A program made the translations under genes and the position numbers. Below are positions 11,390-36,186 of a stretch of DNA of 64,000 bases, in pieces. The stretch comes from a virus, in the IMG/VR virus record IMGVR_UViG_3300046007_007028, positions 1 through 64,000 of that record; one strand, written 5' to 3'. How positions within the stretch are numbered: the stretch's first letter is position 1; every line of letters starts with the position of its first letter. The notes under the pieces are model-generated. The model ran no database searches and was not told where the DNA came from. It was given only the letters and a program-made list of their open reading frames with translations.

Positions 11390-11812
11390 TTATACTTCTT
11401 TGATTGAAATGCCATGCACCTGCTTCATCAGTTTTCGCTTGGCAATATAGGTGCTGAGTTTTTTTGTTGCCTCAGACTTAACATCTTCCACCACCAGTTC
11501 CCCAGTTGCTTGTATTCGGTACACAAAATCGGCAAAATAGGACATTTTGCGTTCACCCTTTTGTGCCGGGACCAGCACAAACTCAACCTGTCGCTCAGGC
11601 AAAGTTATTTCGCCAATTTTCACCAAAAGCATAAGCTCCCGATACCGATTGTACTCTTTTTTGGAGTCAAAAGTCATGCCGTCATACAAGACTTTTTCGT
11701 TGTTATACTTCGCTCGCCTTGCCTTGCCCTTCTTAACTTCAAGCAGATGGCTGTTTTCCGGCCTTTTGGCGGCCTCTGACTTGCGAAACGACTCAATGTC
11801 CCATCCTTTCAT
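11390..11812 (-). CDS. DUF1064-family PD-(D/E)xK nuclease
   Basis: KYNNEKVLYDGMTFDSKKEYNRY, YFADFVY, VVEDVKS. Confidence 0.88.
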   Translation of the reverse strand: MKGWDIESFRKSEAAKRPENSHLLEVKKGKARRAKYNNEKVLYDGMTFDSKKEYNRYRELMLLVKIGEITLPERQVEFVLVPAQKGERKMSYFADFVYRIQATGELVVEDVKSEATKKLSTYIAKRKLMKQVHGISIKEV

Positions 11813-12464
11813 TTGCGTTCGTTGTAGGGGCTAATAGAGGCTTTCGTTGGGCAGCGGGATGATATTTGGCTCCAATTGGCTGTACTTCAATTTTCCAAAT
11901 ATACTTGCCTTTATACATTCTGTTGTCTTTTATGCAGTTCATTACTGTTCTTTGGTTTGTTCCCGTTTGTTTATACAATGATTTAAAGGATTCGTATTCC
12001 TCTAATAAAACCCCGCTAGAATCGTATTTAAAGACTTTAGTTCTTCTGCGAGTTTTTTCTAGGCTTTTTGCATTTTCTCTCCCATGCAGATACCCTAGTT
12101 GCCTCATTCTTTCTGCCGCCTTTTTTCTGGAATTATCCATAATCCCCGTATCAAAAGCGTGTCTCATATTTTCGGACAAGGTAGTCCACTCCAAATTGCT
12201 TGCGCAATTATTCTTTTTGTTGCCGTCTTTGTGATTGACCTGTGGCTTGTTTTCTGGGTTCGGAATAAAATGCAACGCCACTAATCTATGAATTGTTCCT
12301 CTTTTGTTTTTGCCGCCAACCCACATATTAAAATATTCATACCCGTTTTTGCCAAAGTTTGTTTTTGAACTTTTTTGATTTGTTGATCTAAAGTTGCCAA
12401 GGTCTGAAATTTCATAAAGACCGTTTGAGTTTTTTACACTTACCCATTTTTCTTGCGTTTCCAT
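11793..12464 (-). CDS. NUMOD4-HNH-NUMOD1 homing endonuclease
   Basis: YEISDLGNFRS; IHRLVALHFIPNPENKPQVNHKDGNKKNNCASNLEW. Confidence 0.92.
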   Translation of the reverse strand: METQEKWVSVKNSNGLYEISDLGNFRSTNQKSSKTNFGKNGYEYFNMWVGGKNKRGTIHRLVALHFIPNPENKPQVNHKDGNKKNNCASNLEWTTLSENMRHAFDTGIMDNSRKKAAERMRQLGYLHGRENAKSLEKTRRRTKVFKYDSSGVLLEEYESFKSLYKQTGTNQRTVMNCIKDNRMYKGKYIWKIEVQPIGAKYHPAAQRKPLLAPTTNANERMGH

Positions 12465-12573
12465 AAAATGAAAGACCCCGAACTCAAACGCTGCTACACA
12501 TTCAAATCCGAGGTCAGTTGTTGGTTGTTAAACCAATATTTTTTTGCTGGTAGCAGACAGCAATACAAAGGTA
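12465..12573 (-). promoter_or_regulatory. Promoter plus kissing-loop leader (copy 1)
   Basis: TACCTTTG; UUGCUG[UCUGCUAC]CAGCAA; 17-bp GU-rich hairpin 12515-12474 with loop UGUAGCAG. Confidence 0.7.
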
Positions 12574-22214: not shown

Positions 22215-22220
22215 AAACAT

Positions 22221-22909: not shown

Positions 22910-23003
22910 TCCACCCTTCCCGCATTGCCTGAAATGATACACGGCAATAGCAACCCTTTAAACATCGGAACAGGGGCGGGAACCAAACCAAAATGCGGCC
23001 ACC

Positions 23004-23228: not shown

Positions 23229-23232
23229 CAAA

Positions 23233-23460: not shown

Positions 23461-23464
23461 AACC

Positions 23465-24500: not shown

Positions 24501-24742
24501 GAATCACCCTAACCATCCAAACCTGCGACCGTCCCCGCTTTGATGCGGCGGTAAAGGTGGCATTGAAGGGCTCCAGTCCTTTGATTGATTGGGGCAAGCC
24601 TTTGGGCAACGCTTCTGGATTTGCTCCGGTGCATATTGTGTGTGATGGGTACACGGAGGGGGAATTGGGTTTTAAAATTGGGCAGGAGTATGGCAAACAT
24701 TTTTTCAAATTCAAACAAATAAAACAATGGGATACAATTTAG
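24497..24742 (+). CDS. Hypothetical protein
   Basis: Coupled. Confidence 0.6.
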   Translation: MRITLTIQTCDRPRFDAAVKVALKGSSPLIDWGKPLGNASGFAPVHIVCDGYTEGELGFKIGQEYGKHFFKFKQIKQWDTI

Positions 24743-25203
24743 CAATCGGTCAACTAAAGACCACAATCGAATCAGAAGGACTCCATACAAGAATTGTTAA
24801 TGATGTCGAGCCGATGCGATTAGACGAAGCACCTGCGTACGGAGAACCTACCGATGGGACCAACCAAAGATGGCCGTCATATACCGTATGGCGCAACGCA
24901 ATGGATTTTATCGGTCTTTCTGATCTTATGTACAACAATGAACACGGTCTTTTAAGGAGTCATCCCGGATGCTTTCCATTAACAAAAGCACACAAAAAAG
25001 CGATTGACGAAGCACGCAAAAATTTTTACAAGAAATATCCAAACTGCAAGCCCGGATACGAACCCGGAAAGGATATTTTCTTAACCGATCCGGACCCAAG
25101 TTGGCCGATTCAAAACAGTTATGCCACACGATTAGAATGGCTTAAATTCTGGGTTGATTGGGCCTTAAAAAATTGCTCACAGCCTGTTTTTTATAATTCG
25201 TAG
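24727..25203 (+). CDS. Hypothetical protein
   Basis: 158 aa; RLEWLKFWVDWAL motif. Confidence 0.7.
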   Translation: MGYNLAIGQLKTTIESEGLHTRIVNDVEPMRLDEAPAYGEPTDGTNQRWPSYTVWRNAMDFIGLSDLMYNNEHGLLRSHPGCFPLTKAHKKAIDEARKNFYKKYPNCKPGYEPGKDIFLTDPDPSWPIQNSYATRLEWLKFWVDWALKNCSQPVFYNS

Positions 25204-25208
25204 CATTT

Positions 25209-25391
25209 ATGACCACCACCCTCCTTCCACCTCGCACCCTCCGCCAACTAATGGCCGGGGATTTGCTCGCACAACCTGATTATCTGAATACCTTGCACCT
25301 CATCCAGATCATTTTGGACAAGAAAAACACGGATTCCGTCGTAAAATGGACGGCAGCCAAGATATTGGGGGATAGATTGCAGGAGAATTAA
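25209..25391 (+). CDS. Hypothetical protein
   Basis: Fits the gap. Confidence 0.55.
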   Translation: MTTTLLPPRTLRQLMAGDLLAQPDYLNTLHLIQIILDKKNTDSVVKWTAAKILGDRLQEN

Positions 25392-25392
25392 C

Positions 25393-25683
25393 ATGGATAT
25401 GGGTATGAAATCATCTTACATGGGCACGGCAATGTTTATGGCTTTGTTGGCCACTCAGGACAATTTTGGCAGCCTACCAGAAATTGACGACCACGAATCC
25501 GACGAGGACCGAATAGAACGGCTGGAAAGGGACGCTCGGCATAAGAAACGGATACTTGCCCAACAAGAGGCCGACCGCAACAAAGCCAAAGGGCTGCGCC
25601 AATTCTTCTACGGGCCAAATAGCCTTTGGGCCCTGAATCAAAAGTCGGCAGACAAAAAGGCAAAAAGGAATAACTGGATTTAA
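25393..25683 (+). CDS. Hypothetical protein
   Basis: WALNQKSADKKA motif. Confidence 0.65.
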   Translation: MDMGMKSSYMGTAMFMALLATQDNFGSLPEIDDHESDEDRIERLERDARHKKRILAQQEADRNKAKGLRQFFYGPNSLWALNQKSADKKAKRNNWI

Positions 25684-25698
25684 TCAACAAAAACAAAA

Positions 25699-26085
25699 AT
25701 GAAAACAGTAAAACAATGGCTTGAGCAGCTTCCGGACGGATACCGGGAGAGGGCGTTGGAGAATTTGGTCCAAGACGGGAGGGAGAAAAACTCTGTCGGG
25801 CTTATATATTTGGCAATCCACAGGGCTTTTACATGGCAGGAAACAAAAGAGGGTTTTAGTTTTTGGGCCGCGGTGTACTCCCACTATGCAGCCAAAAGCG
25901 TGCCTCTCCCGCAACTTGCCCCACTCCCACCGCCACCATCAAAACCCCTCCCCTACCGCCTTATCCTTGCCATGTTGGGGGTACTGGTTGCGGCTGCCGG
26001 CTTCTTTATGGACCTCCAGTATTTCGTCGGCTTCGGGACCGCCATCGTATCATTTGCCATATTTTTTAAAATTGAGAAAGCATGA
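25699..26085 (+). CDS. Hypothetical membrane protein
   Basis: KTVKQWLEQLPDGYRERAL domain, Pro linker, two C-terminal TM segments. Confidence 0.7.
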   Translation: MKTVKQWLEQLPDGYRERALENLVQDGREKNSVGLIYLAIHRAFTWQETKEGFSFWAAVYSHYAAKSVPLPQLAPLPPPPSKPLPYRLILAMLGVLVAAAGFFMDLQYFVGFGTAIVSFAIFFKIEKA

Positions 26086-26276
26086 AAACCCCTAAAGAAA
26101 TCAAACCTCACCCCGTAGCCATCGGGCTGTTTTTTGTGGCGGTGGCCCTTTTGATTGGTGGCTGGATTGCGGCCATATACACACCCCTTGAATCCAGATT
26201 GCCACACGCTTTGTCATATACCGGGATTGCGGTCATGGGCCTATGTCTACTCATTTTAATCTTTCAGAAATCATGA
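26082..26276 (+). CDS. Small two-TM membrane protein
   Basis: Two hydrophobic segments; coupled. Confidence 0.65.
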   Translation: MKTPKEIKPHPVAIGLFFVAVALLIGGWIAAIYTPLESRLPHALSYTGIAVMGLCLLILIFQKS

Positions 26277-26590
26277 TGCCACACCATATCATAACGGCCT
26301 GCCACGTGCTGGCTCAAACGGGGGTAAGATCCCGGCTTTTAATTCACTCCTTCCAGAAGGAGGTGATTGTTGAGATGCTCGATGCCTTTGGTGGGACGCT
26401 GGAGGTGACGGCCTACGGGCTCAAGTATTCGCAAGATGTCAAAGACATGGTGCAGGTAGAGGCGTTTGTCCCCATGTCAGAGGTCAAACAAAACGAACAG
26501 ATTGCCGCATGGGGTTGTTCCTTGAATTTTTACAGCCCGATGCAAGAGGGGCCGAAACCAGAATGGAGGGATGGGATATTGATATTATGA
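26273..26590 (+). CDS. Hypothetical protein
   Basis: Coupled. Confidence 0.6.
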   Translation: MMPHHIITACHVLAQTGVRSRLLIHSFQKEVIVEMLDAFGGTLEVTAYGLKYSQDVKDMVQVEAFVPMSEVKQNEQIAAWGCSLNFYSPMQEGPKPEWRDGILIL

Positions 26591-26698
26591 AACGAGAACT
26601 GCTTGAAAAATTCAAAGGATGGGCTTGTATAGCCCTTCTTTTTGCCTTTTCGATTTACGTCTGGGCACAGTTGATAGCGACTTTAATTTTGAAATAAA

Positions 26699-26947
26699 AT
26701 GTTTGACAACGACACCCCACCAACCTACCCTGTCACCGTCCAGGACTACATTGATAACAATTATCAAAAGCCTTGGTCTGATGTTTTAAGCTGGTTTTTG
26801 ACAAGCTATTTGGAAGAGGAATGCGAAACCAAAACAGACCTGCTGATTTATTTGGGATATGCAGATGCCCCGGAATCATTGATTGATATGGTTCGGAATG
26901 ATACGTTCCCGGAGCAACTAACCGAAGAATACGAGGGGTTGGTCTAA
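26699..26947 (+). CDS. Acidic hypothetical protein
   Basis: 82 aa, D/E-rich. Confidence 0.65.
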   Translation: MFDNDTPPTYPVTVQDYIDNNYQKPWSDVLSWFLTSYLEEECETKTDLLIYLGYADAPESLIDMVRNDTFPEQLTEEYEGLV

Positions 26948-27057
26948 GATTTTTATTCACCCGACAAAACATCATTTACTTTGAAAAGTACAATCAAACA
27001 AGCGTTGCGGCTGCTTATCCTTGCCGCTATCATTTACATCTCATTTTTTTAAAACCT

Positions 27058-27924
27058 ATGCAATTACAGAAAGCAACCCGGAAGAAGACGAAGCTACGGC
27101 TAAATCTTTCGGCCCCTTCAGGTGCGGGAAAGACCTATTCAGCCCTTCTTATGGCCAAAGGATTGGTCGGGGATTGGGACAAAATTGCCGTTATTGATAC
27201 CGAAAACGGTTCGGCATCTCTGTACGAACACCTCGGCCCGTTCAACGTCATTGACCTTGCCCCACCATTTTCCCCGGAGCGATACATACAAGCCATTGAC
27301 GCTTGTGTTGCCGCTGGGATGGAGTGCATTATCATTGACTCCAGTTCACACGAATGGAGCGGCCCCGGAGGGTGTCTGGAGTCAAACGACGCACTTGCCG
27401 CTGCAAAGTTTAAAGGAAACAATTGGGCCGCCTGGAACGAAACGACGCCCCGCCACGAACGCTTTGTGAGCAAGGTGCTTCACTGCGACGCTCACGTAAT
27501 TACCTGCACCCGTTCCAAGATGGAGACCGTTCAGGAAGGGGGAAAGATAAAGAAGTTGGGTATGAAGGACATCCAAAGGGAAAACTGGGAGTACGAATTA
27601 ACCGTATCGCTATCAATTGATAGAGATACCCACATGGCGGTCCCAAGCAAGGACCGTACGCAACTGTTTGAGGGCACAGCTCCATTTGTCATCACCGAAG
27701 AAACCGGTAAACTGATAAAGGCATGGTGCGAAACCGGCGTGGTGGACCCGGTCAATGAGTTCCGGGACAAGTTGCGCAAGGTTATTGACAACCCGCTTAT
27801 CACTCCAGAGGAACGGGCTAAGTGGGAGAACTGGATGCCGTCTGGCACGGCAGAAACCCTTCAGGGACAGATTGCAAAAGCACAGGAAATGATTAACCAA
27901 CGCACCAATGAACCTCAACCGTGA
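27058..27924 (+). CDS. AAA_24/Sak4-like ATPase (recombination)
   Basis: APSGAGKTYSAL, IAVIDTENGSA, IIIDSSSHEW, EYELT. Confidence 0.88.
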   Translation: MQLQKATRKKTKLRLNLSAPSGAGKTYSALLMAKGLVGDWDKIAVIDTENGSASLYEHLGPFNVIDLAPPFSPERYIQAIDACVAAGMECIIIDSSSHEWSGPGGCLESNDALAAAKFKGNNWAAWNETTPRHERFVSKVLHCDAHVITCTRSKMETVQEGGKIKKLGMKDIQRENWEYELTVSLSIDRDTHMAVPSKDRTQLFEGTAPFVITEETGKLIKAWCETGVVDPVNEFRDKLRKVIDNPLITPEERAKWENWMPSGTAETLQGQIAKAQEMINQRTNEPQP

Positions 27925-28096
27925 ACTGACCTGCATCATTTCCGACGCCCGGTTGTTTAGCGACGCTGACCGCACCCGATTCAGGGAGCGGACGGCTCGC
28001 AGGCCGGTGGAACAGGTTGTTGCCGTGGCCCGTCGGGTGGAAGCGGCAAGGTGGAAGAAGTGGAAAGAAGAGCATCGTAATTTTTTGATAGGATGA
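27908..28096 (+). CDS. Hypothetical protein
   Basis: Coupled on both sides. Confidence 0.55.
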   Translation: MNLNRELTCIISDARLFSDADRTRFRERTARRPVEQVVAVARRVEAARWKKWKEEHRNFLIG

Positions 28097-28605
28097 ATTT
28101 ATTCAACATTACACACGAACGCAAGCTGCTTATGCAGCAGTTGGAAGCCGCAGACGGGGAGGCGTCAGAGGAGCTTCTGGAAGAACTTGCAATCAATCGG
28201 TCAAACTTTGAAGAAAAGGCCGAAGGATACGCCTACATGATGCGCAAACTCGAAACGGATGTGAATGCCGTCAAAAGCGAAATCGACCGCCTGACGGCCC
28301 TAAAAACGGCAAAAGAAAGGGCATACGAACGCCTTGAAAAGACTTTGCTTGATGCCGTTGTTCAATACGGGGAGAAAGGCAAGGACGACGTGGCAAGGGC
28401 CGAGGTTGGGACTTTCCGGTTTTCAACCCGTCGCAATCCCGCTTCGGTTGAGATTTTGGATGAAGAGGCTATTCCAGAGGAGTACAAGGTGAGCAAGACG
28501 ACGGTGAGCGTAAGCAAGACGACGATCAAAAACGCCTTGTCTTTGGGGCAGTCCGTTCCGGGGGCGCAGATGAAGGAGGGGGACTTGAGGCTGGTTGTGA
28601 AGTAA
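28093..28605 (+). CDS. Siphovirus Gp157-family protein
   Basis: EEKAEGYA...EIDRL...RRNPASVEILDEEAIPEEY...IKNAL..G..VPGA. Confidence 0.9.
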   Translation: MNLFNITHERKLLMQQLEAADGEASEELLEELAINRSNFEEKAEGYAYMMRKLETDVNAVKSEIDRLTALKTAKERAYERLEKTLLDAVVQYGEKGKDDVARAEVGTFRFSTRRNPASVEILDEEAIPEEYKVSKTTVSVSKTTIKNALSLGQSVPGAQMKEGDLRLVVK

Positions 28606-28616
28606 AAAAATGTTTT

Positions 28617-28765
28617 TACATTTGCAGCGGATAGAAAACCAAGCTGAACCGGTTTATTGCCCAACCAACCCCTCATAGGGCAAAAGTGTGCATCCTAATT
28701 ACCGGTTCAGCCATAGTTTAGCAATAAGCTATGCGGTTTTTGGGGTGCACACTTTTGTTTTGCCC
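28617..28765 (+). promoter_or_regulatory. Promoter plus kissing-loop leader (copy 2)
   Basis: TACATTTG; AAACC[AAGCUGAACC]GGUUU; long stem 28681-28757 presenting GUUCAGC beside a GCAA-tetraloop hairpin. Confidence 0.7.
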
Positions 28766-29090
28766 CTCTTTGGTTTTGACTTTCTACCATAGTCCAAAGA
28801 CAAAAAGAAAGGCCGTTTGATCCGGCTGGGAGTAATCCTGAAAACTCGACCACACACAGGCTTGCGATTAAGTCCTGCTCTGACCCAAGGTGTCAACAGG
28901 CAACTGGTGCCGGAAGGTAGTAAGTCTGATGAACGAAACACCCAAAGCTGTTAAAGCTGAAGTTAATAAGAATTGGGACAGGACGGAAGTGGTGGTTTGG
29001 GTTGAAGTGTTAATAGGAGACACTTAAATCTTGGTACATGGGGAACCTATACACCAGGATAAAAACCTTCCTATGATTAAAAACCAATAA
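28766..29090 (+). ncRNA. Candidate large structured non-coding RNA
   Basis: No convincing ORF; consecutive hairpins including GGGA-GUAA-UCCU. Confidence 0.35.
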
Positions 29091-29093
29091 TTT

Positions 29094-29414
29094 ATGCTAC
29101 TCCACACAATCGAACGAGGCAAGTATGCGAGGGTGGTCGCTGAAAGGGTGGTTTACATTGAAGCATCCGGTCAGGACCAAACAACCCTGCACATGACAGA
29201 CAAACGGATGATTGCGGTACGTGGTGCATTGGGATTGATTGCGGCCAAATTCCCGACCTTTTCTCAGGCTGCCAAATATTGCTATGTGAATCCGGACCAT
29301 GTTTATTCCGTTCGGGTAATTGGTATGAGGGTTCATATTAAGTTTGGGAATGGGGAGAAGCTGGAGGTGGGCCGGAGCAAAAAATTCTACAAACAATTTT
29401 TGTCGTCCCTTTGA
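29094..29414 (+). CDS. Stand-alone LytTR DNA-binding domain protein
   Basis: VVYIEASG...LH...R.AL...F...YVNPDHV...NGEKLEVGR matches the LytTR layout. Confidence 0.8.
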   Translation: MLLHTIERGKYARVVAERVVYIEASGQDQTTLHMTDKRMIAVRGALGLIAAKFPTFSQAAKYCYVNPDHVYSVRVIGMRVHIKFGNGEKLEVGRSKKFYKQFLSSL

Positions 29415-29468
29415 GGGGTTTGGTCGAAGAATTTATATCTGATTGAGAGGGTGAAATATTTTTGAAAC

Positions 29469-29729
29469 ATGGAAGCAACAAAACCAACAAAACAACAAAT
29501 CAACGCTGCGGCACTGGAGGTGATTGCTCGTATTTCTGAAGGTAAGGAACGTGAGAGGCTGGAGAGGGAGGTAGGGGAGGTTCTAAATAAACCAAGAAAC
29601 ATAATTGGAAATGCTTTATGGAATAACGATAATCTAGCATTTTCTTTTTGGCCTACTTGGATAGACTGTTGTAATTCAAATGGATACCTTGTCGCCACCT
29701 TCAAACTCAAATCCCGCAAAACCGTTTAA
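29469..29729 (+). CDS. Hypothetical protein
   Basis: TATTTTTG promoter just upstream. Confidence 0.65.
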   Translation: MEATKPTKQQINAAALEVIARISEGKERERLEREVGEVLNKPRNIIGNALWNNDNLAFSFWPTWIDCCNSNGYLVATFKLKSRKTV

Positions 29730-29762
29730 GAACATCCAAAACAAAACTTTAACAAAAAACAA

Positions 29763-29966
29763 ATGGAAGCAAAAGAATTTTACGACAAAAGATTAAAAGA
29801 AGATGGCACTATTGGTAGTGTTCAGCTTATGGAAGAGTATGCAAAACACATTATTGAAATAAATTTTTGCGATGGAATCTCAATTGAATTTAATAAGCTG
29901 TCAGTAGAAGATTTAAAACGTATGCATAGGGCGGTAAGCTTATGTGTCATGTGGGTCAACACTTAA
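29763..29966 (+). CDS. Hypothetical protein (AT-rich)
   Basis: A-rich start. Confidence 0.6.
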   Translation: MEAKEFYDKRLKEDGTIGSVQLMEEYAKHIIEINFCDGISIEFNKLSVEDLKRMHRAVSLCVMWVNT

Positions 29967-29987
29967 TTACTTAACCAAACCATTCAA

Positions 29988-30491
29988 ATGATCTTCCTGC
30001 AAACCTCCGCCACGACCTTCCACCAGATTGATGCTGGGGAGGTGGTATTTATTAACACAACAATCAATACAATCTTGCACAAGGATAATATTATCAATTA
30101 TTCCGATGACTTTGAGGGCAGGATTGTTCAGGAATTGGTTCGGGCCAATCCAATGATTTCTAAAGTGAACGAATCGGAGTATCTGAATCGGAACAAGATT
30201 GACCGGATTGAAAGGATTGGATACGACTACCATGCCTACATTTCCGGAAGTCCATTTAGACTCGACCCCAACTGCCTTCTGGTCCACCTTACATTCAAAA
30301 AAAGCTATGTGAAAACAGCAAAGCAATACATCAATAACTTGGACAACCAGGGCATCATTGATTCAATAATCCTTGGTCCGGGAACCGTGGAACACAAAAT
30401 ACGGAGGATTGCAAAAGAGGACATTGGCGAAACGGTCAATACCTACTACATCAACAAAAGGAAGAGGGAATTGAAAGCGAAAAACAAATAA
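29988..30491 (+). CDS. Divergent LytTR-like protein
   Basis: IDAGEVVFI...ISKVNESEYLNRNKIDRIE resembles LytTR. Confidence 0.5.
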   Translation: MIFLQTSATTFHQIDAGEVVFINTTINTILHKDNIINYSDDFEGRIVQELVRANPMISKVNESEYLNRNKIDRIERIGYDYHAYISGSPFRLDPNCLLVHLTFKKSYVKTAKQYINNLDNQGIIDSIILGPGTVEHKIRRIAKEDIGETVNTYYINKRKRELKAKNK

Positions 30492-30495
30492 GAGC

Positions 30496-30756
30496 ATGAA
30501 AACCAAAAACATCCGGGACTTTGTAATCGTCCCAACAACGCCCGAAGAGGCGCAAAAGGTAGCAGATCGGCTGGTGGAGATGGGGGAGCCTGTATTTGAG
30601 CCGGAGGAGTTTGCTAAATGTTTTAATCGTTTCCGATGGGTGACGTTTGATGGGGATGATTGGGTCCAAAATAAGCCAAATTTTGAAAACCGCCCCCGCA
30701 TCTCAGCAGCCGATTTTTTGGCGGGGGATACTCAAAAGATTTTGGAGGTGGAGTAA
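30496..30756 (+). CDS. Hypothetical protein
   Basis: 86 aa ORF. Confidence 0.65.
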   Translation: MKTKNIRDFVIVPTTPEEAQKVADRLVEMGEPVFEPEEFAKCFNRFRWVTFDGDDWVQNKPNFENRPRISAADFLAGDTQKILEVE

Positions 30757-30821
30757 GTATTCAACCAAAACCAATCCAGAGCCGTAAAAAGCAACAAAAT
30801 AAAAACCTTTAATTTTACGAC

Positions 30822-32078
30822 ATGAAAAACCTCTTTCTCCTCGCAGCCTTCCTGATGGTATTGGGAAGCTGCACACGCAAACTTATCACGCCACAAACCG
30901 ACGAATTGGTTGTAACCTCCGACGAAGTTCCTGGACCACAAGAACTGTCAATGTTCCGCACCGCAAGTGAACCGGATTTCTGGGAACCAACTTACCGAAG
31001 CTACCGGATTGTTCCGTTCTACATCGAAGTTGATTCAATCTACAACGCTCACTGGCGACCTTTTACCGAAGACACGGTAAGAGCCAGATTTGCCAGGATT
31101 GCATGGAACATGGAACGCCAGACGGGACTAAGGTTTACAATTAGCCAAATCAAAATCCTAACCCGCCACGACATTGTAAGCCGTCAGACAAACGGAAATA
31201 ATATGCTGTTTCAGTTTTCATCAACGGTTCCAAGGGTAGGCAACAACTTTATGCTAAGGATCTCAGGACGTTCTGGATTAGGTGGTTCGGCCTTCATATC
31301 CAGAGGAAGCCTGACAACTGCACCATACGCCATTTCTGGCTTCGGCAAAGCGATTGCAGGAGGGTTTGATAAGCCCGGAAACGACGAGTACGCCATTGGC
31401 CACGAAATCCTGCATAACTTGGGAATCTCACATTCCCATAACTGTTGCGAGTGGTACACCAAGGACGGCAGACCATTGGGCAGACTTGATTCAGCAGCAG
31501 CCGGGGAAACAACTTGTTCACCTGTTCCGATCCGTTGTAACAGGACGACCATACGCCAATCGGGAGGCTGGAATAGTTATGCTCATATTTGGGGACAGGC
31601 AACCTACACCCTGCATCCATCGGTATTGGCTAAGCTACATCGGGCCGTGTTTTATTCAAGCCTTCAGACTTATACCCCGACACAACCACCATTACCACCC
31701 GTTACTACTTGCAGCACTCAGGTAGCCCACACATCAGCCACAGGAAGTCATCCGGGCTTTGATAAGGCATTGGATGGTATTGACAACACAAACGCTTCCA
31801 GATGGGTTGTAAATGCCCCACAAACAAGCCTGACCTTGACCTACAACAATGCCAGCGTGGATTGCATCCGGATATGGACAGGGTACTTGTCTGGCTCAAC
31901 ATGGGGCAGCCCAATCAGGCAAGCAATCGTATCGGTAAACGGCACTCAGTTATTAGCCGTTCCTGGTGCTTTGGAGATCAACATTCCGGTTAATCGGGCT
32001 GGGGTGAATACCATTAAGATTGATTTCTTTGCGTTGGATAGCCATGTAAGAATTAGAGAGGTTAGGGTTTTGGATTAG
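30822..32078 (+). CDS. Lipoprotein metzincin (reprolysin/M12-like) metallopeptidase with C-terminal discoidin/F5-8-like domain
   Basis: Lipobox VLGSC; HEILHNLGISH (HExxHxxGxxH, 31401-31433); KALDG...SRW and VRIREVRV. Confidence 0.85.
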   Translation: MKNLFLLAAFLMVLGSCTRKLITPQTDELVVTSDEVPGPQELSMFRTASEPDFWEPTYRSYRIVPFYIEVDSIYNAHWRPFTEDTVRARFARIAWNMERQTGLRFTISQIKILTRHDIVSRQTNGNNMLFQFSSTVPRVGNNFMLRISGRSGLGGSAFISRGSLTTAPYAISGFGKAIAGGFDKPGNDEYAIGHEILHNLGISHSHNCCEWYTKDGRPLGRLDSAAAGETTCSPVPIRCNRTTIRQSGGWNSYAHIWGQATYTLHPSVLAKLHRAVFYSSLQTYTPTQPPLPPVTTCSTQVAHTSATGSHPGFDKALDGIDNTNASRWVVNAPQTSLTLTYNNASVDCIRIWTGYLSGSTWGSPIRQAIVSVNGTQLLAVPGALEINIPVNRAGVNTIKIDFFALDSHVRIREVRVLD

Positions 32079-32496
32079 GTTGCATAAAGTTCCGCAGATA
32101 AGCGAAGGCACAAATAGCGTTGGCTTTAGCAAGGGATTTGGGCTTTTGCTTATGTGCTGTTAGCAGAAGTACGGTCAATTTTAAACGAATTTTTAACTTA
32201 AATAAATAACAAAATGAAAGTAACAGTAACAGAGGATTTAGGTATCCAATTAGAAGAAGTTTTTAGCGGTTTAACTTTAAAAACCGAAAGTGGGGAAACA
32301 ATGTCAATTTGTATGCGAGATAGTGGCTTTGAGTTTAATTATCAAGGCGAGTGGTATTTTGCAAAAGAAGGATATGTTGAGCCATTTCACAAGTCAGTTA
32401 GAGATAACTATTTAGTTTCTGAATTGCAAAGACACGACCATAATTTAGATGCAGATGCAATGCCTGTTAGTAACGGTCAGTAGTATTTCTGCTAAC
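32079..32496 (+). mobile_element. Integron-like gene cassette (degenerate attC, ORF, inverse core)
   Basis: Imperfect palindrome GCAGATAAGCGAAG/TTTTGCTTATGTGC ending in GTTAGCAGAAGTAC (32159-32172); complementary GTATTTCTGCTAAC (32483-32496) at the ORF stop. Confidence 0.6.
32214..32483 (+). CDS. Hypothetical cassette protein
   Basis: AT-rich 89 aa ORF inside attC-like borders. Confidence 0.75.
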   Translation: MKVTVTEDLGIQLEEVFSGLTLKTESGETMSICMRDSGFEFNYQGEWYFAKEGYVEPFHKSVRDNYLVSELQRHDHNLDADAMPVSNGQ

Positions 32497-32540
32497 TCGT
32501 AAATATCCGCAATCAACCTAACCAACAAAACCAGCGAAAG

Positions 32541-32897
32541 ATGAACTACGAAAAGCTATTTAATTATTTCCATGAGCAACATGGGATAAGTCTGTTGCTA
32601 ACAGATATGCAGGAGGTTGCCCGTATTGTTAAGGAAGTGGAAGAGCCGGGAAGCACGAAGCCAACTTGTCCGATAATTGACGTTTGTGGGTTTACTATTG
32701 ACTTGCGAAAAGTTGAGCGTGTTACTCCGGTCGGTGGCGATAAAAACCATTTGTCATATATGGTTTATTTTACAGGCGGCAATAAAATAGAAATTCCTCA
32801 TGCACAGCAATTTGCCAACGGGAAGAAATTTGACCACATGGAACGGGAAAAGTTTGTTGAATTATGGAAATCTTTTAATCTGAGTATCCATGCTTGA
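32541..32897 (+). CDS. Hypothetical protein
   Basis: 118 aa ORF. Confidence 0.7.
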   Translation: MNYEKLFNYFHEQHGISLLLTDMQEVARIVKEVEEPGSTKPTCPIIDVCGFTIDLRKVERVTPVGGDKNHLSYMVYFTGGNKIEIPHAQQFANGKKFDHMEREKFVELWKSFNLSIHA

Positions 32898-33099
32898 AAT
32901 CCTCATAACCGGCTTCCTTCTGTTTGTGGCTTATGTCATCTATCACCACAACCGCTACACCTACGGCCACTGCAACGGCATACCGGCGCGGAAGCATTGG
33001 GCATCTGGAGTGGTTGAGATGAAGTTGGAGCAGGAATGGGTCGTGATGTCCCGGAAATATTGGAAGGAGTTTACAGCGTATAAAGACCTTGAAAAGTGA
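32890..33099 (+). CDS. Small membrane-anchored protein
   Basis: N-terminal TM segment. Confidence 0.6.
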   Translation: MLEILITGFLLFVAYVIYHHNRYTYGHCNGIPARKHWASGVVEMKLEQEWVVMSRKYWKEFTAYKDLEK

Positions 33100-33120
33100 G
33101 AATTTGGTTAAATGACTGGA

Positions 33121-33150
33121 AAGGCCGCTTGAATTTTGAGCGGTTTTTTT
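33121..33150 (+). terminator. Intrinsic terminator ending the plus-strand arm
   Basis: GCCGCTT...GAGCGG-T7. Confidence 0.8.
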
Positions 33151-33162
33151 ATTTCCCTTCCA

Positions 33163-33372
33163 TTATTTCTCTGGCATATCCACCTTGTTATACTTGCTAA
33201 CCAATCGCCTAAACTGGTCCACAAATTGACCTAAAATATAGATCAGGATTGCATCGGTTGTGTCTATCTTCCCAAATTTGTAAAGCCATCCAACTCCAAT
33301 AAGAAGCCCGACAAGGATTGCGCTTGTTAAAAGGAAGGAGATAAACTGAATTGTTCTTTGCCAATCCCACAT
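33163..33372 (-). CDS. Two-TM membrane protein, holin candidate
   Basis: 69 aa, two hydrophobic segments, charged C-terminus, near the endolysin. Confidence 0.5.
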   Translation of the reverse strand: MWDWQRTIQFISFLLTSAILVGLLIGVGWLYKFGKIDTTDAILIYILGQFVDQFRRLVSKYNKVDMPEK

Positions 33373-33387
33373 TCCACAAAAATATCT

Positions 33388-33515
33388 TATATTTGCATGG
33401 CTTCCAATAGGAAGCAACCAACGGACTAGGTTGGACAAGAAACTGGGAGAAATCCCATAACACGGCCCTGAATTGGCGTAGCTAGTCCCTGCGTTGATTT
33501 GGGGCTTTTGTTTTT
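33388..33515 (+). promoter_or_regulatory. Promoter plus kissing-loop leader (copy 3)
   Basis: TATATTTG; CCAAC[GGACUAG]GUUGG; GAAA-tetraloop hairpin; 18-bp GU-rich hairpin with loop CUAGUCC; U tract. Confidence 0.75.
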
Positions 33516-33518
33516 AAG

Positions 33519-34031
33519 ATGGATAAGTATTTAAAATTTGTTGAAGCAGGGCTAAGAGTTTCTAAGGATGGAGTAGTCTACGGCAAAAGAGGGAAAGAAA
33601 GAGTATTATTCACCAACAATTCAGGTTATTCAATAACCCATTTTCTATATAAGGGGAATCCCATAAACGTCTTGGTGCATCGACTTGTCGCAATGGCATT
33701 TATCCAAAATCCATTGGGTCTTTCTCAGGTAAACCATATCAACGGGATAAAATCCGACAATCGAGTGGAAAATTTAGAATGGTGCTCTGTGAGCCAAAAC
33801 ATACGTCACAGATTTTCATCTGGCATAACATCTTTGCAATCGCAATCTCGTCCTTCTTTACAAAATGGAAGATGCAGGAAGGTGCACCAAATTAAAAATG
33901 GGGTAATTATTGATACATTCCCTTACATGGTGGCTGCCGCACAAGCTGTTGGCGGCACAGCCTCGTGCATTAGAAATGTTTGTGCTGGTAGGGCTTCATC
34001 GCACAAGGGCTTTCAATGGGAGTACGCTTGA
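33519..34031 (+). CDS. HNH homing endonuclease with NUMOD1
   Basis: VHRLVAMAFIQNP...VNHINGIKSDNRVENLEW; C-terminal NUMOD1. Confidence 0.92.
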   Translation: MDKYLKFVEAGLRVSKDGVVYGKRGKERVLFTNNSGYSITHFLYKGNPINVLVHRLVAMAFIQNPLGLSQVNHINGIKSDNRVENLEWCSVSQNIRHRFSSGITSLQSQSRPSLQNGRCRKVHQIKNGVIIDTFPYMVAAAQAVGGTASCIRNVCAGRASSHKGFQWEYA

Positions 34032-34061
34032 TCCTTTTGCCTGTTATGTCGGAGTTGAATT

Positions 34062-34505
34062 TCATGGCTTCACAATCAACAATCCTTTTGCATTTGGGAC
34101 CCACCTTGAGTCTGCATGAAGCCATCGCGGGGTCGCAGAAATGTCCTCTACGGCCCTGATAGACGTTTTGGCAATTACCTCTTCCTGGTTATCCAAAAGC
34201 CACTTGTATAGCTCCTCAACAGTCATATCCGGACTATCAAAGTCGGTGGCGTTCATTTTGTAGGAATGCTGGCTCCACGGATTGAAAGACGGTGCGTCGG
34301 GCGTTCTCAGGCCCCGCCAGAAATGTACGGGGTTCTTGGTGTGCCAGTTGTTTACAACAAGGCGCACTCCTGTCCGGGTCCGGAGCCACTGCATTGCCTC
34401 AACTTGCTCCCTGACCAGAAACCACGTAGAATTTGCGCCCCACTTTTGATAGGTGGACCGGCTTACAAATTCTTGGATGTCAAAGTTGGTTGTGAGATTG
34501 CCCAT
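34062..34505 (-). CDS. Endolysin, peptidase M15-like
   Basis: NFDIQEF, RGLR, SQH...ATDF, WLHAD Zn-peptidase motifs. Confidence 0.82.
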   Translation of the reverse strand: MGNLTTNFDIQEFVSRSTYQKWGANSTWFLVREQVEAMQWLRTRTGVRLVVNNWHTKNPVHFWRGLRTPDAPSFNPWSQHSYKMNATDFDSPDMTVEELYKWLLDNQEEVIAKTSIRAVEDISATPRWLHADSRWVPNAKGLLIVKP

Positions 34506-34575
34506 TAGTCCACAAAATAATGGGTTTGGTCGAAAACTGCAAAATGGATTTATTGGGAAGGGGTAGGTTTGGGGA

Positions 34576-34764
34576 ATGGAAAATACTTATACTCCAATCA
34601 TTGTAGACCTTGTTTACACCAATTTTGAATCCAATCTTTTAAAGCAAGATGGGAAGAAAATAGATATGGGGAAATTATCTATCACCGCAATTTTGGCAAC
34701 CCAAAAGGACGTTGAGGGAATAATCAATCAACTGGAAATCATCAAACATTGTTTTAAGAAGTAA
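34576..34764 (+). CDS. Hypothetical protein
   Basis: TAGGTTTG promoter upstream. Confidence 0.6.
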   Translation: MENTYTPIIVDLVYTNFESNLLKQDGKKIDMGKLSITAILATQKDVEGIINQLEIIKHCFKK

Positions 34765-34934
34765 TGAAACAAATCCTTCTAACCCTAATCGACCGCCTAT
34801 TCCCCGCCAAGTGCAAGCATGAGTGGGAGGATAAATATATGGTTTCGGTAAAAAATGAGATTGGTCAAGTATATAAGACAAGAGTAACTTTGGCTTGCAA
34901 ACATTGTGGTGAGATTAAACAGATGAGTTTATGA
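34764..34934 (+). CDS. Small Zn-ribbon protein, 56 aa (not in ORF track)
   Basis: Manual translation: CKHEW...CKHCG; coupled on both sides. Confidence 0.65.
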   Translation: MKQILLTLIDRLFPAKCKHEWEDKYMVSVKNEIGQVYKTRVTLACKHCGEIKQMSL

Positions 34935-35185
34935 CAAAAATCAAATTTATTGCTGTCCCAATCCGTATCGGGAAAGCAGCAGCCCTAAATCAATGGCTTG
35001 ACGGCTTTTGTGAAATCCACGACATTGATAGAGACAAAGTCAATGTCGTAATGGCTGGGAAATCTGCTGTGCTAAGAATTACGATTGCCAGTTTAGAGCA
35101 TATCAAACTTTTGTCGGACGGGTTGAAGGATGTGGTGGAGAAGGCGCCTACCTCAACCCCGCAAAATACTCAACCGACCTCCTGA
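34931..35185 (+). CDS. Hypothetical protein
   Basis: Coupled; converges on the lipoprotein gene. Confidence 0.55.
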   Translation: MTKIKFIAVPIRIGKAAALNQWLDGFCEIHDIDRDKVNVVMAGKSAVLRITIASLEHIKLLSDGLKDVVEKAPTSTPQNTQPTS

Positions 35186-35447
35186 CCCTTTTCCATCGTC
35201 CCCGCCTTCCTTCTTCGACAAACAAAAAGCTGTCCGCCTGTATAGCCACCGGAAAAACATAGTTCATGTCCCGGATTAGATATGCCTGTTCCCGTTCCTG
35301 GGCCCGGAGCCTGTCCTGAAGCTGTAATGTCAGCAACGCAAGCGAATCAAACTCCGCACGAGATACGGGCCTTTCAGATGGGATATGAACCGTCGGGCCG
35401 GTGCAGGCGGTGGTTAATAATAATAATACGAACGCAATCTTTTTCAT
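35148..35447 (-). CDS. Lipoprotein with coiled coil, spanin candidate
   Basis: MKKIAFVLLLLTTAC lipobox; heptad region. Confidence 0.55.
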   Translation of the reverse strand: MKKIAFVLLLLTTACTGPTVHIPSERPVSRAEFDSLALLTLQLQDRLRAQEREQAYLIRDMNYVFPVAIQADSFLFVEEGRRGRWKRVRRSVEYFAGLR

Positions 35448-35788
35448 TTTTTGAACCCTAAATAAACCCCAACAATATGCCAAACTTTTGCCCATCCCTT
35501 CCTTTTGAGGCCCTCCACGGCCTCCCGCTTCAACACGGGCTTGACCTGCGTGTCCCATTCGGGTTTACGAACGTCCCTGAGTCGCTTGTAGGTGTCGAGC
35601 ATGGCATTTAAGATACGCCAGCCGAGAAGCAATAGCCATCCATGGGTGAATAGCCATTGCTCCCAATCGGGGAAGTCCGGTTTGATCTGAAGAAAAACGG
35701 CCCCGGCTCTAATTCCCCAGAAAACAGACTGATCCTGAAGGGTATGAATGTAGTCTTCTTTTAGGTTACAAAAAAACCGGGTCGGCAT
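35444..35788 (-). CDS. Membrane protein (lysis-associated candidate)
   Basis: Hydrophobic WLFTHGWLLLLGW segment; coupled. Confidence 0.5.
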   Translation of the reverse strand: MPTRFFCNLKEDYIHTLQDQSVFWGIRAGAVFLQIKPDFPDWEQWLFTHGWLLLLGWRILNAMLDTYKRLRDVRKPEWDTQVKPVLKREAVEGLKRKGWAKVWHIVGVYLGFKK

Positions 35789-36186
35789 TACTCCTCTGTC
35801 TTGCGGTGGTAGTACAAGGTGTCGGGTGTCGCAGTTTTCCATCCGGGTAGTCCGAAGATGTAGGCGATGGCTTGGGCTCCGGTGATTTCATGTCCCTGAA
35901 CTCTTTTGTTTCCAAGCAAGCCAGTCAGCCTTTCTTCCATGGCAAAACCATTAATTCGGAAAGTTGTTTCAATTTTCCAGCCTTTTGAGGACATTTCCCC
36001 TGGTAATTGCCGGTTATCCATCCCGATTGCAAACCCCTCTGAGGTCATCAGGGCGTGGCACAAAGAATCCCCGTGCTTAACCAGCAAACACGGAATCCGC
36101 TCGATACGGGTATAAAGTCCGAAAAAGGACCTGACGGGCCGCTGGATAATGCGCACATCCCACGGCTTTGGGCTGTTATGCTTCAT
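35788..36186 (-). CDS. Hypothetical protein (weak permuted NlpC/P60-like resemblance)
   Basis: AIAYIFGLPGWKTATPDTLY; catalytic Cys not evident. Confidence 0.5.
   Translation of the reverse strand: MKHNSPKPWDVRIIQRPVRSFFGLYTRIERIPCLLVKHGDSLCHALMTSEGFAIGMDNRQLPGEMSSKGWKIETTFRINGFAMEERLTGLLGNKRVQGHEITGAQAIAYIFGLPGWKTATPDTLYYHRKTEE

What the first reader, a model, noticed from the sequence alone, without database searches (positions are those of the whole stretch)
33388..33518. Kissing-loop leader RNA family: clearest copy, upstream of an HNH endonuclease
Seen: after a TATATTTG promoter, hairpin CCAAC[GGACUAG]GUUGG (loop 33423-33429) and an 18-bp GU-rich hairpin with loop CUAGUCC (33482-33488) have perfectly complementary 7-nt loops. 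A U tract and the HNH ATG follow. The same architecture, with entirely different loop sequences, occurs at 12465-12573 and 28617-28765, which amounts to within-genome covariation. The many G-U pairs point to a strand-specific RNA fold. Inference: a cis-regulatory loop-loop attenuator or antisense-sensing switch controlling potentially toxic genes. I cannot match it to a named RNA family.
Basis: partly seen in the sequence, partly recalled or inferred. Interest (0 to 1): 0.82.

Follow-up and report, generated by a model that had tools for sequence, protein, structure and literature searches.

The report
Kissing-loop leader RNA before homing endonucleases
Both selfish DNA-cutting (HNH) genes of this lake-water phage sit behind their own promoter-like box and a folded RNA leader of about 105-120 bases, in which two hairpin tips pair with each other; the leader ends in a terminator-like hairpin, matches no catalogued RNA family, and probably keeps nuclease production low.

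Summary
At 33397-33515 (+) four hairpins fold on the + strand only. The 7-nt loops GGACUAG and CUAGUCC are perfect complements, and an 18-bp hairpin with 7 G.U pairs is followed by a U tract and the HNH start codon.

A covariance model built from copy A alone finds it as the only other hit in the window (E 5e-6). Four of the 7 loop-loop pairs differ on both sides.

Models built here found three more distinct leaders in other phage records. Each has its own 7-nt loop pair. They precede a MUG113/T5orf172 nuclease gene, an HNH-like gene and, in one case, a replication-type gene.

The third "copy" (28617-28765) is only an analogue: no model hit, and no ORF follows.

Lake metagenome contigs show an HNH-less allele, and the same leader joined to a different ORF, so the leader is a portable module.

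Rfam and three paper searches gave nothing. This scan has already noted the same kind of leader on other DNA (43 notes, at least 35 genomes).

Best reading: a cis-acting attenuator and insulator for the nuclease gene. The function is inferred, not shown.

The parts
33388..33395 (+). Bacteroidota-type -7 promoter box TATATTTG of leader A
   Evidence: Read. The same box type (TATATTTG or TACCTTTG) stands before all 5 distinct leaders. The motif alone is not enriched in the window.
33400..33415 (+). P1 hairpin GCUUCC[AAUA]GGAAGC, probably at the 5' end of the transcript
   Evidence: MFE fold. L101 has an equivalent hairpin. Copy C lacks it.
33418..33434 (+). P2 (X hairpin) CCAAC[GGACUAG]GUUGG; loop X is 33423-33429
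   Evidence: All 5 stem pairs are changed on both sides relative to copy C.
33444..33458 (+). P3 hairpin UGGGA[GAAA]UCCCA
   Evidence: The same 14 nt (UGGGAGAAAUCCCA) occur in L101.
33464..33506 (+). P4, an 18-bp G.U-rich terminator-like hairpin; loop X' CUAGUCC is 33482-33488
   Evidence: Sense -23.4 against antisense -8.3 kcal/mol. The X/X' duplex is 7 bp, -9.3 kcal/mol.
33507..33518 (+). U tract UUUUGUUUUU plus AAG spacer before the start codon
   Evidence: The AUG lies 9-14 nt after P4 in all 5 leaders.
33519..34031 (+). HNH homing endonuclease gene A (170 aa)
   Evidence: Pfam HNH_3 1.3e-8; phrog_59 7e-36.
33158..34056 (.). Segment replaced by about 220 other letters in the HNH-less allele; it holds leader A and HNH A
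   Evidence: A contig joint 33157->34057 in run X12. Relatives L015 and L016 align only to 33100-33160 and 34028-34079.
12566..12573 (-). -7 box TACCTTTG of leader C
12544..12563 (-). Leader C X hairpin UUGCUG[UCUGCUAC]CAGCAA
12521..12536 (-). Leader C middle hairpin UUGGUU[UAAC]AACCAA
12474..12515 (-). Leader C 18-bp G.U-rich hairpin with loop GUAGCA(G), followed by UUUCAUUUU
   Evidence: 7 G.U pairs; sense -22.7 against antisense -3.9 kcal/mol.
11793..12464 (-). HNH homing endonuclease gene C (223 aa)
   Evidence: Pfam HNH_3 1.7e-8 and NUMOD4 9.2e-7; phrog_59 1.2e-45.
28617..28765 (+). Analogue B, not shown to be a family member: TACATTTG, an 11-nt long-range complement (28643-28653 with 28701-28711), a long branched hairpin and a U-rich tail
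   Evidence: No model hit. No ORF of 50 aa or more follows on the + strand before 29094.

Best explanation
This is a member of an undescribed family of structured 5' leader RNAs that travels with phage homing-endonuclease cassettes as one portable unit.

The unit consists of:
- a Bacteroidota -7 promoter box;
- a 5' hairpin that displays loop X;
- a small tetraloop hairpin;
- a long G.U-rich hairpin that displays the complementary loop X', with a G-C-rich base;
- a U tract, and the start codon 9-14 nt later.

Shown here: the fold, its strand specificity, the homology of the copies, the covariation of the stems and of the loop-loop pairing, its position before the genes, and its presence inside a segment that HNH-less alleles lack.

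Inferred: the long hairpin plus U tract acts as a one-directional intrinsic terminator. Most transcripts from the cassette promoter, and from upstream host-phage genes, would stop before the nuclease ORF, so only read-through makes nuclease. The X/X' kissing contact would lock the leader into one compact fold whatever the neighbouring sequence, which makes the module work the same way at any insertion site. The G.U pairs would remove the hairpin from the opposite strand, so a cassette inserted antisense to host genes (as copy A is) does not stop their transcription.
For: Fold and strand specificity:
- z is -4.40 (A), -4.19 (C) and -5.25 (L101), with 0-1 of 200 shuffles as good.
- The reverse strands give z -1.53 and -0.79.
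- P4 sense energies are -23.4, -22.7 and -20.8 kcal/mol. Antisense energies are -8.3, -3.9 and -9.2.

Homology:
- Model R1, built from A alone, finds C as the only other hit in 64 kb (32.8 bits, E 5e-6, full length).
- R2 and R3 find L101 (41 bits), L128 (36 bits), and L129 with its identical copy L130 (25 bits).

Covariation:
- In the A/C alignment, 69 of 69 cells pair and 16 of 35 pairs are changed on both sides.
- In the 5-sequence alignment, 92.7% of 137 cells pair and 21 of 28 pairs are changed on both sides. 0 of 500 shuffles reach these values, and the slid controls pair at 52% or less.

Kissing loops: the cognate X/X' complement is 7 nt in 5 of 5 leaders. Non-cognate pairs reach at most 5 nt in 19 of 20 comparisons.

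Terminator features: P4 heads the list of terminator-like sites in the region scanned. All 5 leaders have a G-C-rich stem base followed by a U-rich run.

Association with nuclease genes:
- The record has 2 HNH_3 genes and both carry the leader.
- The L101 leader precedes a MUG113/T5orf172 gene.
- The L128 leader precedes a phrog_959 HNH gene.

Portability:
- An HNH-less allele coexists in the lake populations.
- In contigs of two runs, 106 nt and 88 nt of leader A are identical but are joined to a different upstream box and a different ORF start.

Precedent: in T4, the terminators of mobE and segF limit endonuclease transcripts (passages of PMC2790892 and PMC2988022).
Against: - There are no RNA data. 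No listed sequencing run is RNA, so neither the transcript ends nor termination have been observed.
- The promoter motif alone is at chance frequency in the window.
- Copy C lies inside a same-strand operon, where an efficient terminator would be polar on downstream genes. Only a weak candidate for a compensating promoter was seen (TATATTTG at 11896-11903 on the - strand).
- P4 is unlike the phage's ordinary terminator at 33117-33151, which has a short G-C stem and T7. It may therefore do more than terminate, or something else.
- The U-rich run could equally be the A/U-rich translation start region.
- I saw no alternative antiterminator pairing, so nothing suggests a switch.
- One member (L129 and L130) precedes a replication-type gene, not a nuclease.
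- None of the 93 loci fetched through HNH similarity has the leader before the matched HNH gene. The leader is therefore not a general trait of HNH_3 genes.
- The alignments were fitted to the model's structure. The E-values come from shortened calibration.
Confidence: 0.5

Rival explanations
1. A post-transcriptional element. The leader stays on the full-length mRNA. There it acts as a 5' stabiliser, as an RNase III-type processing site that separates the nuclease mRNA from upstream transcripts, or as a structure that tunes ribosome loading in a host without Shine-Dalgarno use. Termination would be incidental.
For: - The AUG always lies 9-14 nt after P4, which ties the element to the start codon.
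- The first hairpin begins a few nt after the -7 box, as 5' stabilisers do.
- An 18-20 bp duplex is long for a terminator and is unlike the phage's ordinary terminator.
- A stable hairpin just upstream of a homing-endonuclease start that does not cover it is reported for seg43(25) of Aeromonas phage 25 (passage of PMC2988022).
Against: - The G-C-rich stem base plus U tract is conserved in 5 of 5 leaders, as expected of terminators.
- Nothing here shows processing or any effect on stability.
- The kissing contact has no obvious role in RNase III cutting.
Confidence: 0.2
2. A stand-alone small RNA gene. The terminated RNA of about 105-120 nt is itself the product, for example a decoy or an antisense regulator. 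The nuclease gene merely lies downstream.
For: - It has a promoter-like box, a compact fold and a terminator-like end, which is the anatomy of an sRNA gene.
- Copy A is antisense to the minus-strand lysis-region transcript.
- Analogue B has no ORF behind it.
Against: - The fixed 9-14 nt spacing to an AUG holds in 5 of 5 leaders, and also in the contig variant in which a different ORF starts right after the U tract.
- X and X' are mutually complementary, so both loops would be occupied in cis.
- The loop sequences differ in every copy, so there is no common target.
Confidence: 0.12
3. A promoter-proximal RNA that modifies RNA polymerase, in the manner of a put-like or Q-type late-leader system. 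The fold, or a phage protein bound to it, would make polymerase read through P4 and later terminators at a set time of infection.
For: - The position is directly after a promoter.
- It has a multi-hairpin compact fold.
- It occurs before a replication-type gene in L129 and before a long non-coding region in analogue B.
Against: - No candidate antiterminator protein is shared between the phages that carry it (not searched for systematically).
- put RNAs are recalled as carrying no terminator of their own.
- It mostly occurs before single selfish genes.
Confidence: 0.06
4. Chance, or a DNA-level feature such as an inverted repeat used in recombination or as a nuclease site, with no RNA function.
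For: My loose descriptor gives 2 or more loci in 5 of 40 shuffled genomes. The promoter motif is at chance frequency.
Against: - Seven G.U pairs in each 18-bp stem make the fold strand-specific.
- The model hits have E-values of 5e-6 and below.
- Compensatory changes occur in 21 of 28 pairs.
- Five different 7-nt loop pairs are all perfectly complementary.
Confidence: 0.02

Closest known systems
Intrinsic terminators in the 5' part of the free-standing homing endonuclease genes mobE and segF of phage T4 (PMC2790892 and PMC2988022; passages read)
   Same: A Rho-independent terminator lies at the very start of a free-standing HNH endonuclease unit and lowers endonuclease transcript levels. A promoter further on restores expression of the downstream host-phage gene.
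   Different: - In T4 the terminator lies inside the coding region, 27 nt after the AUG. It has a 9-bp stem and a 4-nt loop, and the gene has no promoter of its own.
- Here the terminator-like hairpin lies before the AUG and is 18-20 bp long and G.U-rich. It is part of a multi-hairpin leader with a covarying loop-loop contact, and it follows its own promoter-like box.
RBS-sequestering hairpins with an embedded late promoter before I-TevI, I-TevII, I-TevIII, segB and Aeh1 mobE (PMC2988022; passages read)
   Same: Stable RNA structure directly upstream of homing endonuclease genes restricts their expression.
   Different: Those hairpins cover the Shine-Dalgarno site, and the late promoter lies inside the hairpin. 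Here the start codon lies 9-14 nt outside the hairpin, no Shine-Dalgarno site is involved, and the promoter-like box precedes the whole structure.
Hairpin immediately upstream of seg43(25) in Aeromonas phage 25 (PMC2988022; passage read)
   Same: A very stable hairpin ends just before the translation start of a homing endonuclease without covering it. Its function is untested.
   Different: That case is a single hairpin in a T4-like phage with a Shine-Dalgarno site. No kissing partner or family is described.
Intramolecular loop-loop contacts of riboswitch aptamers, such as the L2-L3 contact of purine riboswitches (recalled, not from a call)
   Same: Two hairpin loops of one leader pair to make a compact fold upstream of an expression platform.
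   Different: Riboswitch loops are conserved in sequence and build a ligand pocket. Here the loop letters differ in every copy and only the complementarity is kept. No ligand pocket or switch helix is evident.
Countertranscript-driven attenuation of plasmids pT181 and pIP501 (recalled, not from a call)
   Same: Loop-loop (kissing) pairing is linked to a terminator just upstream of a gene whose dose must stay low.
   Different: In those plasmids the partner loop is on a separate antisense RNA and the pairing decides between two folds. Here both loops lie on the same RNA and no countertranscript promoter lies within the leader.

Membership tests
Kissing-loop leader of phage homing-endonuclease cassettes (the unnamed family noted by this scan; not in Rfam) | A TAnnTTTG box, then an X hairpin, a small middle hairpin and a long hairpin bearing X', then a U tract and an AUG within about 15 nt | tested here: met
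   Met by A, C, L101, L128 and L129. B does not meet it.
Kissing-loop leader of phage homing-endonuclease cassettes (the unnamed family noted by this scan; not in Rfam) | Loop X and loop X' stay complementary while their letters change | tested here: met
   The cognate complement is 7 nt in 5 of 5 leaders, with five different sequences. 19 of 20 non-cognate pairs reach at most 5 nt.
Kissing-loop leader of phage homing-endonuclease cassettes (the unnamed family noted by this scan; not in Rfam) | Detectable homology of sequence plus structure between copies | tested here: met
   R1 links A to C (E 5e-6). R2 and R3 hit L101, L128 and L129.
Any Rfam 15 family | A score at or above the family's gathering threshold | tested here: not met
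   0 matches in the whole window. 0 matches at E up to 10 in 33050-34150. Only noise around C, L101 and B: best E 1.1, 0.27 and 0.069, all far below gathering scores.
Intrinsic (Rho-independent) terminator | A stable hairpin with a G-C-rich base, directly followed by a U-rich tract | tested here: met
   First-listed site of the scan. The same layout is seen in all 5 leaders.
Intrinsic (Rho-independent) terminator | Transcripts actually end at the U tract | not testable with these tools
   No RNA run is listed for this DNA.
T-even type RBS-sequestering hairpin of homing endonuclease genes | The hairpin covers the ribosome binding site or start codon, and the late promoter lies inside the hairpin | tested here: not met
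   The AUG lies 9-14 nt outside P4, and the promoter-like box precedes the whole leader.
T4 mobE/segF-type internal terminator | The terminator lies within the 5' coding region of a promoterless endonuclease gene | tested here: not met
   P4 lies upstream of the AUG, and a -7 box stands about 105-120 nt upstream. The T4 features come from passages of PMC2790892.
Group I intron carrying the HNH gene | A group I core fold around the endonuclease ORF, interrupting a host gene on the same strand | tested here: not met
   No Intron_gpI or any other match at E up to 10 on either strand of 33050-34150. The structured part folds on the strand opposite to the possibly interrupted gene.
Riboswitch with loop-loop tertiary contact | Conserved loop and junction nucleotides that form a ligand pocket, plus mutually exclusive terminator and antiterminator helices | tested here: inconclusive
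   The loop letters are not conserved. No alternative helix was seen by eye. No systematic search for alternative folds was run.

The most novel reading that the evidence does not exclude
The leader may be an addressable switch rather than a fixed brake. Each cassette would carry its own 7-nt 'code' (X/X'). A trans-acting RNA, or the invading strand of a co-infecting genome's transcript bearing the same code, would open the kissing contact and change termination or translation. Individual selfish nuclease genes would then be turned on only in particular infection states, such as co-infection with a nuclease-less relative. The different codes in copies A and C of one phage would keep the two cassettes from cross-talking.
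Probability: 0.1. Interest if true: 0.85.

Novelty: new variant of a known kind. Interest (0 to 1): 0.6.

Why it matters
Homing endonucleases spread by cutting DNA, and they have to be expressed at tolerable levels wherever they land. In T-even phages this is done with gene-specific hairpins and terminators.

Here a ready-made, transferable expression module (promoter box, folded leader, one-directional terminator-like hairpin) precedes unrelated nuclease families in different Bacteroidota-type phages. It forms a structured RNA family that is not in Rfam.

If the function is confirmed, three things follow:
- It would explain how such genes insert in either orientation without harming neighbouring genes.
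- It would give a natural set of orthogonal kissing-loop pairs.
- It would add a widespread phage RNA class to annotation pipelines.

Tried and rejected
- **Group I intron.** The first 13 codons of a minus-strand ORF (34065->34027) match the start of an 82-aa ORF in relative L016. I therefore asked whether the HNH segment is an intron in that gene. Rfam gives no match at E up to 10 on either strand. The structured part folds on the opposite strand. The distal ORF (33166-33372) is not detectably similar to the rest of the L016 protein (BLASTP E 0.23). Rejected as an intron. Whether the gene is split remains open.
- **tRNA or tmRNA.** None found.
- **Leader as a general feature of HNH_3 genes.** Rejected.
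  - Fetched through HNH A were 13 loci, and through HNH C 80 loci.
  - My two descriptor scans and models R2 and R3 find no leader before the matched HNH genes.
  - L075-L078 looked similar in the descriptor scan, but there the promoter box stands directly before the ATG.
  - L063 (E 0.0015 to 0.0066) is an ordinary terminator before a Shine-Dalgarno gene, with no loop complementarity.
- **Pattern scans.** A degenerate pattern built from copies A and C gave 0 hits in viral contigs. In metagenome contigs it gave one false hit inside a permease ORF. A 27-nt exact stretch of leader A gave 0 hits in viral contigs. A P3-based pattern in genome contigs gave 22 loci, none convincing with R3 (best E 0.015).
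- **Relatives fetched through neighbouring genes.** The endolysin-like gene gave none. The NinB-like gene gave two distant relatives; one of them, L101, happened to hold a true leader elsewhere in the locus. The Gam-like gene gave one unrelated high-GC phage.
- **RNA evidence.** No RNA holder is listed among the 24 runs, so expression could not be examined.
- **Papers.** Searches returned no paper that describes a kissing-loop leader of homing endonuclease genes. Supplementary files were not consulted.

Full report
**What is there.** The window is part of a 72,439-base IMG/VR virus record.

At 33388-33395 stands TATATTTG, which has the form of the Bacteroidota -7 promoter box; that consensus is recalled, not taken from a call. 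The next 120 nt fold into four hairpins on the + strand:
- P1, 33400-33415.
- P2, CCAAC[GGACUAG]GUUGG, 33418-33434.
- P3, UGGGA[GAAA]UCCCA, 33444-33458.
- P4, an 18-bp hairpin at 33464-33506 with loop CUAGUCC.

UUUUGUUUUU follows P4, and then the ATG of a 170-aa ORF at 33519.

The + strand folds at -47.8 kcal/mol (z -4.40, 0 of 200 shuffles as good). The reverse strand reaches only z -1.53. P4 has 7 G.U, 7 G-C and 4 A-U pairs, so it folds at -23.4 kcal/mol in the sense direction and only -8.3 in antisense. It heads the list of 34 terminator-like sites in 17000-36000. The two 7-nt loops are perfect complements (duplex -9.3 kcal/mol). The ORF is an HNH_3 endonuclease (Pfam 1.3e-8; phrog_59).

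**The second copy.** The stretch 12465-12573 does not fold notably on the + strand (z -0.79). On the minus strand it does (z -4.19). The order there is:
- TACCTTTG at 12573->12566.
- UUGCUG[UCUGCUAC]CAGCAA.
- UUGGUU[UAAC]AACCAA.
- An 18-bp hairpin with 7 G.U pairs and loop GUAGCA(G).
- UUUCAUUUU, then the ATG at 12464.

The gene behind it (11793-12464) is also an HNH_3 endonuclease, with a NUMOD4 motif. A profile search of the whole record finds exactly two HNH_3 genes. Both are therefore preceded by this leader. The two proteins share 43% identity over 69 residues.

**Is it more than chance?** My loose descriptor asked for a stem of 10 bp or more and an upstream hairpin whose loop has a 6-nt or longer Watson-Crick complement. 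It finds exactly these two loci on both strands of the record. However, 5 of 40 dinucleotide shuffles also give two or more loci, so that count alone proves little.

The stronger tests are the following.
- A covariance model built from copy A alone (R1) finds copy C as the only other hit in the 64-kb window. The hit is full length, 32.8 bits, E 5e-6.
- In the resulting structural alignment, all 69 cells are standard pairs and 16 of 35 pairs are changed on both sides. Within the kissing helix, the table counts 3 changed pairs and my reading by eye gives 4.
They share a CUA/UAG core.

**More members.** Models R2 (A and C) and R3 (A, C and L101) were run over 98-99 held loci. They were then run over the whole records behind 48 and 42 of my loci. 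Three further distinct leaders emerged:
- L101 4454-4561: 41 bits, z -5.25.
- L128: 36 bits.
- L129, with the identical L130: 25 bits.

That makes 1 of 5 records, 3 of 48 and 0 of 42.

Each new leader has a TATATTTG or TACCTTTG box and the same order of hairpins. Each has a U-rich tail and an AUG 9-14 nt after the long stem. Each also has its own 7-nt loop pair:
- CUGGAGG/CCUCCAG in L101.
- UGUCUAC/GUAGACA in L128.
- CUACCAC/GUGGUAG in L129.

Cognate loops are complementary over 7 nt in 5 of 5 leaders. Non-cognate combinations reach at most 5 nt in 19 of 20 cases. The one exception uses stem-flanking letters.

In the five-sequence alignment, 92.7% of 137 cells pair and 21 of 28 pairs are changed on both sides. 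No shuffle out of 500 reaches these values, and the slid controls pair at 52% or less. Two caveats apply. The alignment was fitted to the model's structure, and the E-values come from shortened calibration.

**What the leaders precede.**
- A and C precede HNH_3 genes.
- L101 precedes an ORF cut by the contig end. It is 97% identical to a 217-aa protein with MUG113 and T5orf172 domains. I recall these domains as GIY-YIG-related.
- L128 precedes a 120-aa phrog_959 HNH protein, which has no Pfam hit.
- L129 and L130 precede an 85-aa winged-helix protein like the N-terminus of replication initiators.

So 4 of 5 distinct leaders precede nuclease genes and one does not.

Conversely, none of the 93 loci fetched by HNH similarity has the leader before the matched HNH gene. 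The leader is a module that some cassettes carry. It is not a property of the enzyme family.

**Mobility.**
- Close relatives L015 and L016 (97% identity in a neighbouring gene) align to the window only at 33100-33160 and 34028-34079. In between they have a short minus-strand ORF.
- In lake-water metagenome contigs, one contig joins 33157 to 34057 with about 220 other letters between. This shows that an HNH-less allele coexists with the cassette allele.
- The summed contig depth is 13-153 on the left flank and 3-6 on the cassette. This is a rough figure for contigs.
- One contig carries 33427-33514 unchanged and then runs into a different ORF start. Another carries 33409-33514 unchanged behind a different upstream sequence with a TATCTTTG box.

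The leader is therefore exchanged as a module.

**The third 'copy'.** 28617-28765 has a TACATTTG box and an 11-nt long-range complement, 28643-28653 with 28701-28711, of -19.7 kcal/mol. It also has a long branched hairpin with a U-rich tail, and it folds well (z -4.73). It differs from the family in these ways:
- The downstream partner sits in an internal loop.
- No ORF follows on the + strand before 29094.
- No model detects it.
- Perfect 11-nt inverted repeats at this spacing are expected about 1.5 times per shuffled genome.

I treat it as a possible analogue inside a roughly 480-nt non-coding region, not as a member.

**Known families.**
- Rfam gives nothing at gathering thresholds for the window. 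It gives nothing at E up to 10 around copy A, and only noise around C, L101 and B.
- Three full-text searches returned no description of such a leader.
- The nearest published cases are in T-even phages. An intrinsic terminator lies 27 nt inside T4 mobE and stops 30-50% of transcripts. A promoter further on serves the next gene (passages of PMC2790892).
- Terminators are also reported in mobE and segF, and RBS-sequestering hairpins with embedded late promoters before I-TevI, I-TevII, I-TevIII, segB and Aeh1 mobE. An untested hairpin lies just upstream of seg43(25) (passages of PMC2988022).

The present element shares the logic of those cases but not their anatomy.

**Mechanism.** I commit to a cis-acting attenuator and insulator (confidence 0.5).

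Shown: the fold, the strand specificity, the homology, the covariation, the position and the portability.

Inferred:
- P4 plus the U tract terminates most transcripts before the ORF.
- The kissing contact fixes the fold independently of the insertion context.
- The G.U pairs make the terminator one-directional. This fits copy A, which lies antisense to the surrounding lysis-region genes.

Against this reading:
- There are no RNA data.
- Copy C would be polar within its operon.
- P4 is unlike the phage's usual terminator.
- No alternative helix suggests a switch.
- One member precedes a gene that is not a nuclease.

The rivals, in order of weight, are a post-transcriptional stabiliser, processing site or translation tuner (0.2), a stand-alone small RNA (0.12), a polymerase-modifying leader (0.06), and chance or a DNA-level feature (0.02).

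**Earlier notes of this scan.** A word search returned 43 notes in at least 35 genomes that describe kissing-loop leaders before homing endonuclease genes in Bacteroidota-type phages. First-reader notes also exist on copies C and B of this same genome.
- I had established the minus-strand fold and the HNH association before reading them.
- They gave me the pointer to the mobE paper, which I checked.
- They claim that the family is widespread and sometimes precedes other genes. My own models confirm this only on a small scale: three further distinct leaders in four other records, one of them before a gene that is not a nuclease.

Noticed in passing
window 34027-34065 (- strand) and 33163-33372 (- strand); L016 3679-3924 (-): The first 13 codons after the endolysin-like gene (MKFNSDITGKRIK) match the start of an 82-aa ORF in relative L016. 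Homology then stops at the HNH stop codon. A 69-aa ORF with its own ATG resumes at 33372 and ends at the same terminator as the L016 ORF. The rest is not detectably similar (BLASTP E 0.23). It may be a small lysis-region gene split or replaced by the cassette.
   Followed up: partly
window 33376-33399: There are back-to-back promoter-like boxes in a near-palindrome: TATATTTG on the + strand (33388-33395) and TATTTTTG on the - strand (33377-33384). The - strand box ends 4 nt before the ATG at 33372. The cassette may supply an outward promoter for the ORF it displaced.
   Followed up: no
window 11896-11903 (- strand): TATATTTG lies inside the 3' part of HNH gene C, 84 nt before the start of the next gene (11812). 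It could compensate for a terminator in leader C, as the promoter near the mobE 3' end does in T4. A single motif match is weak evidence.
   Followed up: no
window 28606-29093: A non-coding, highly structured stretch of about 480 nt lies between a Gam-like gene and a LytTR-domain gene. It holds the only perfect inverted repeats of 11 nt or longer at 10-100 nt spacing in the whole record. There is no Rfam match above noise.
   Followed up: partly
run X15 contig over window 33427-33514; run X19 contig over window 33409-33514: Leader A occurs unchanged in lake metagenome contigs that continue into a different ORF start and a different upstream promoter-like box. The other gene could not be identified from the 30 letters shown.
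   Followed up: partly
L010 about 840-944: A distant HNH homologue has a TACCTTTG box and a leader of about 95 nt. A hairpin loop in it (GUCAAC) is complementary to two GUUGAC sites, one directly before the AUG. This may be a variant that masks the start region instead of kissing a terminator loop. R2 and R3 do not hit it.
   Followed up: partly
window 30622-30664 (+): A 19-bp G.U-rich hairpin with one mismatch and a 3-nt loop lies in the gap before the metallopeptidase-like gene at 30822. It has no U tract.
   Followed up: no
window 442-475 and record 72131-72164 (- strand): Nearly identical 34-nt hairpin-forming stretches lie near both ends of the 72-kb record. This may reflect a terminal repeat or a duplicated gene end.
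   Followed up: no
window 33117-33151: An ordinary terminator (G-C stem, 3-nt loop, T7) closes the + strand gene block and lies directly beside the stop of the minus-strand ORF at 33163. Because of that position it may also end minus-strand transcripts, which was not tested. It is conserved at 98% in L015 and L016.
   Followed up: no
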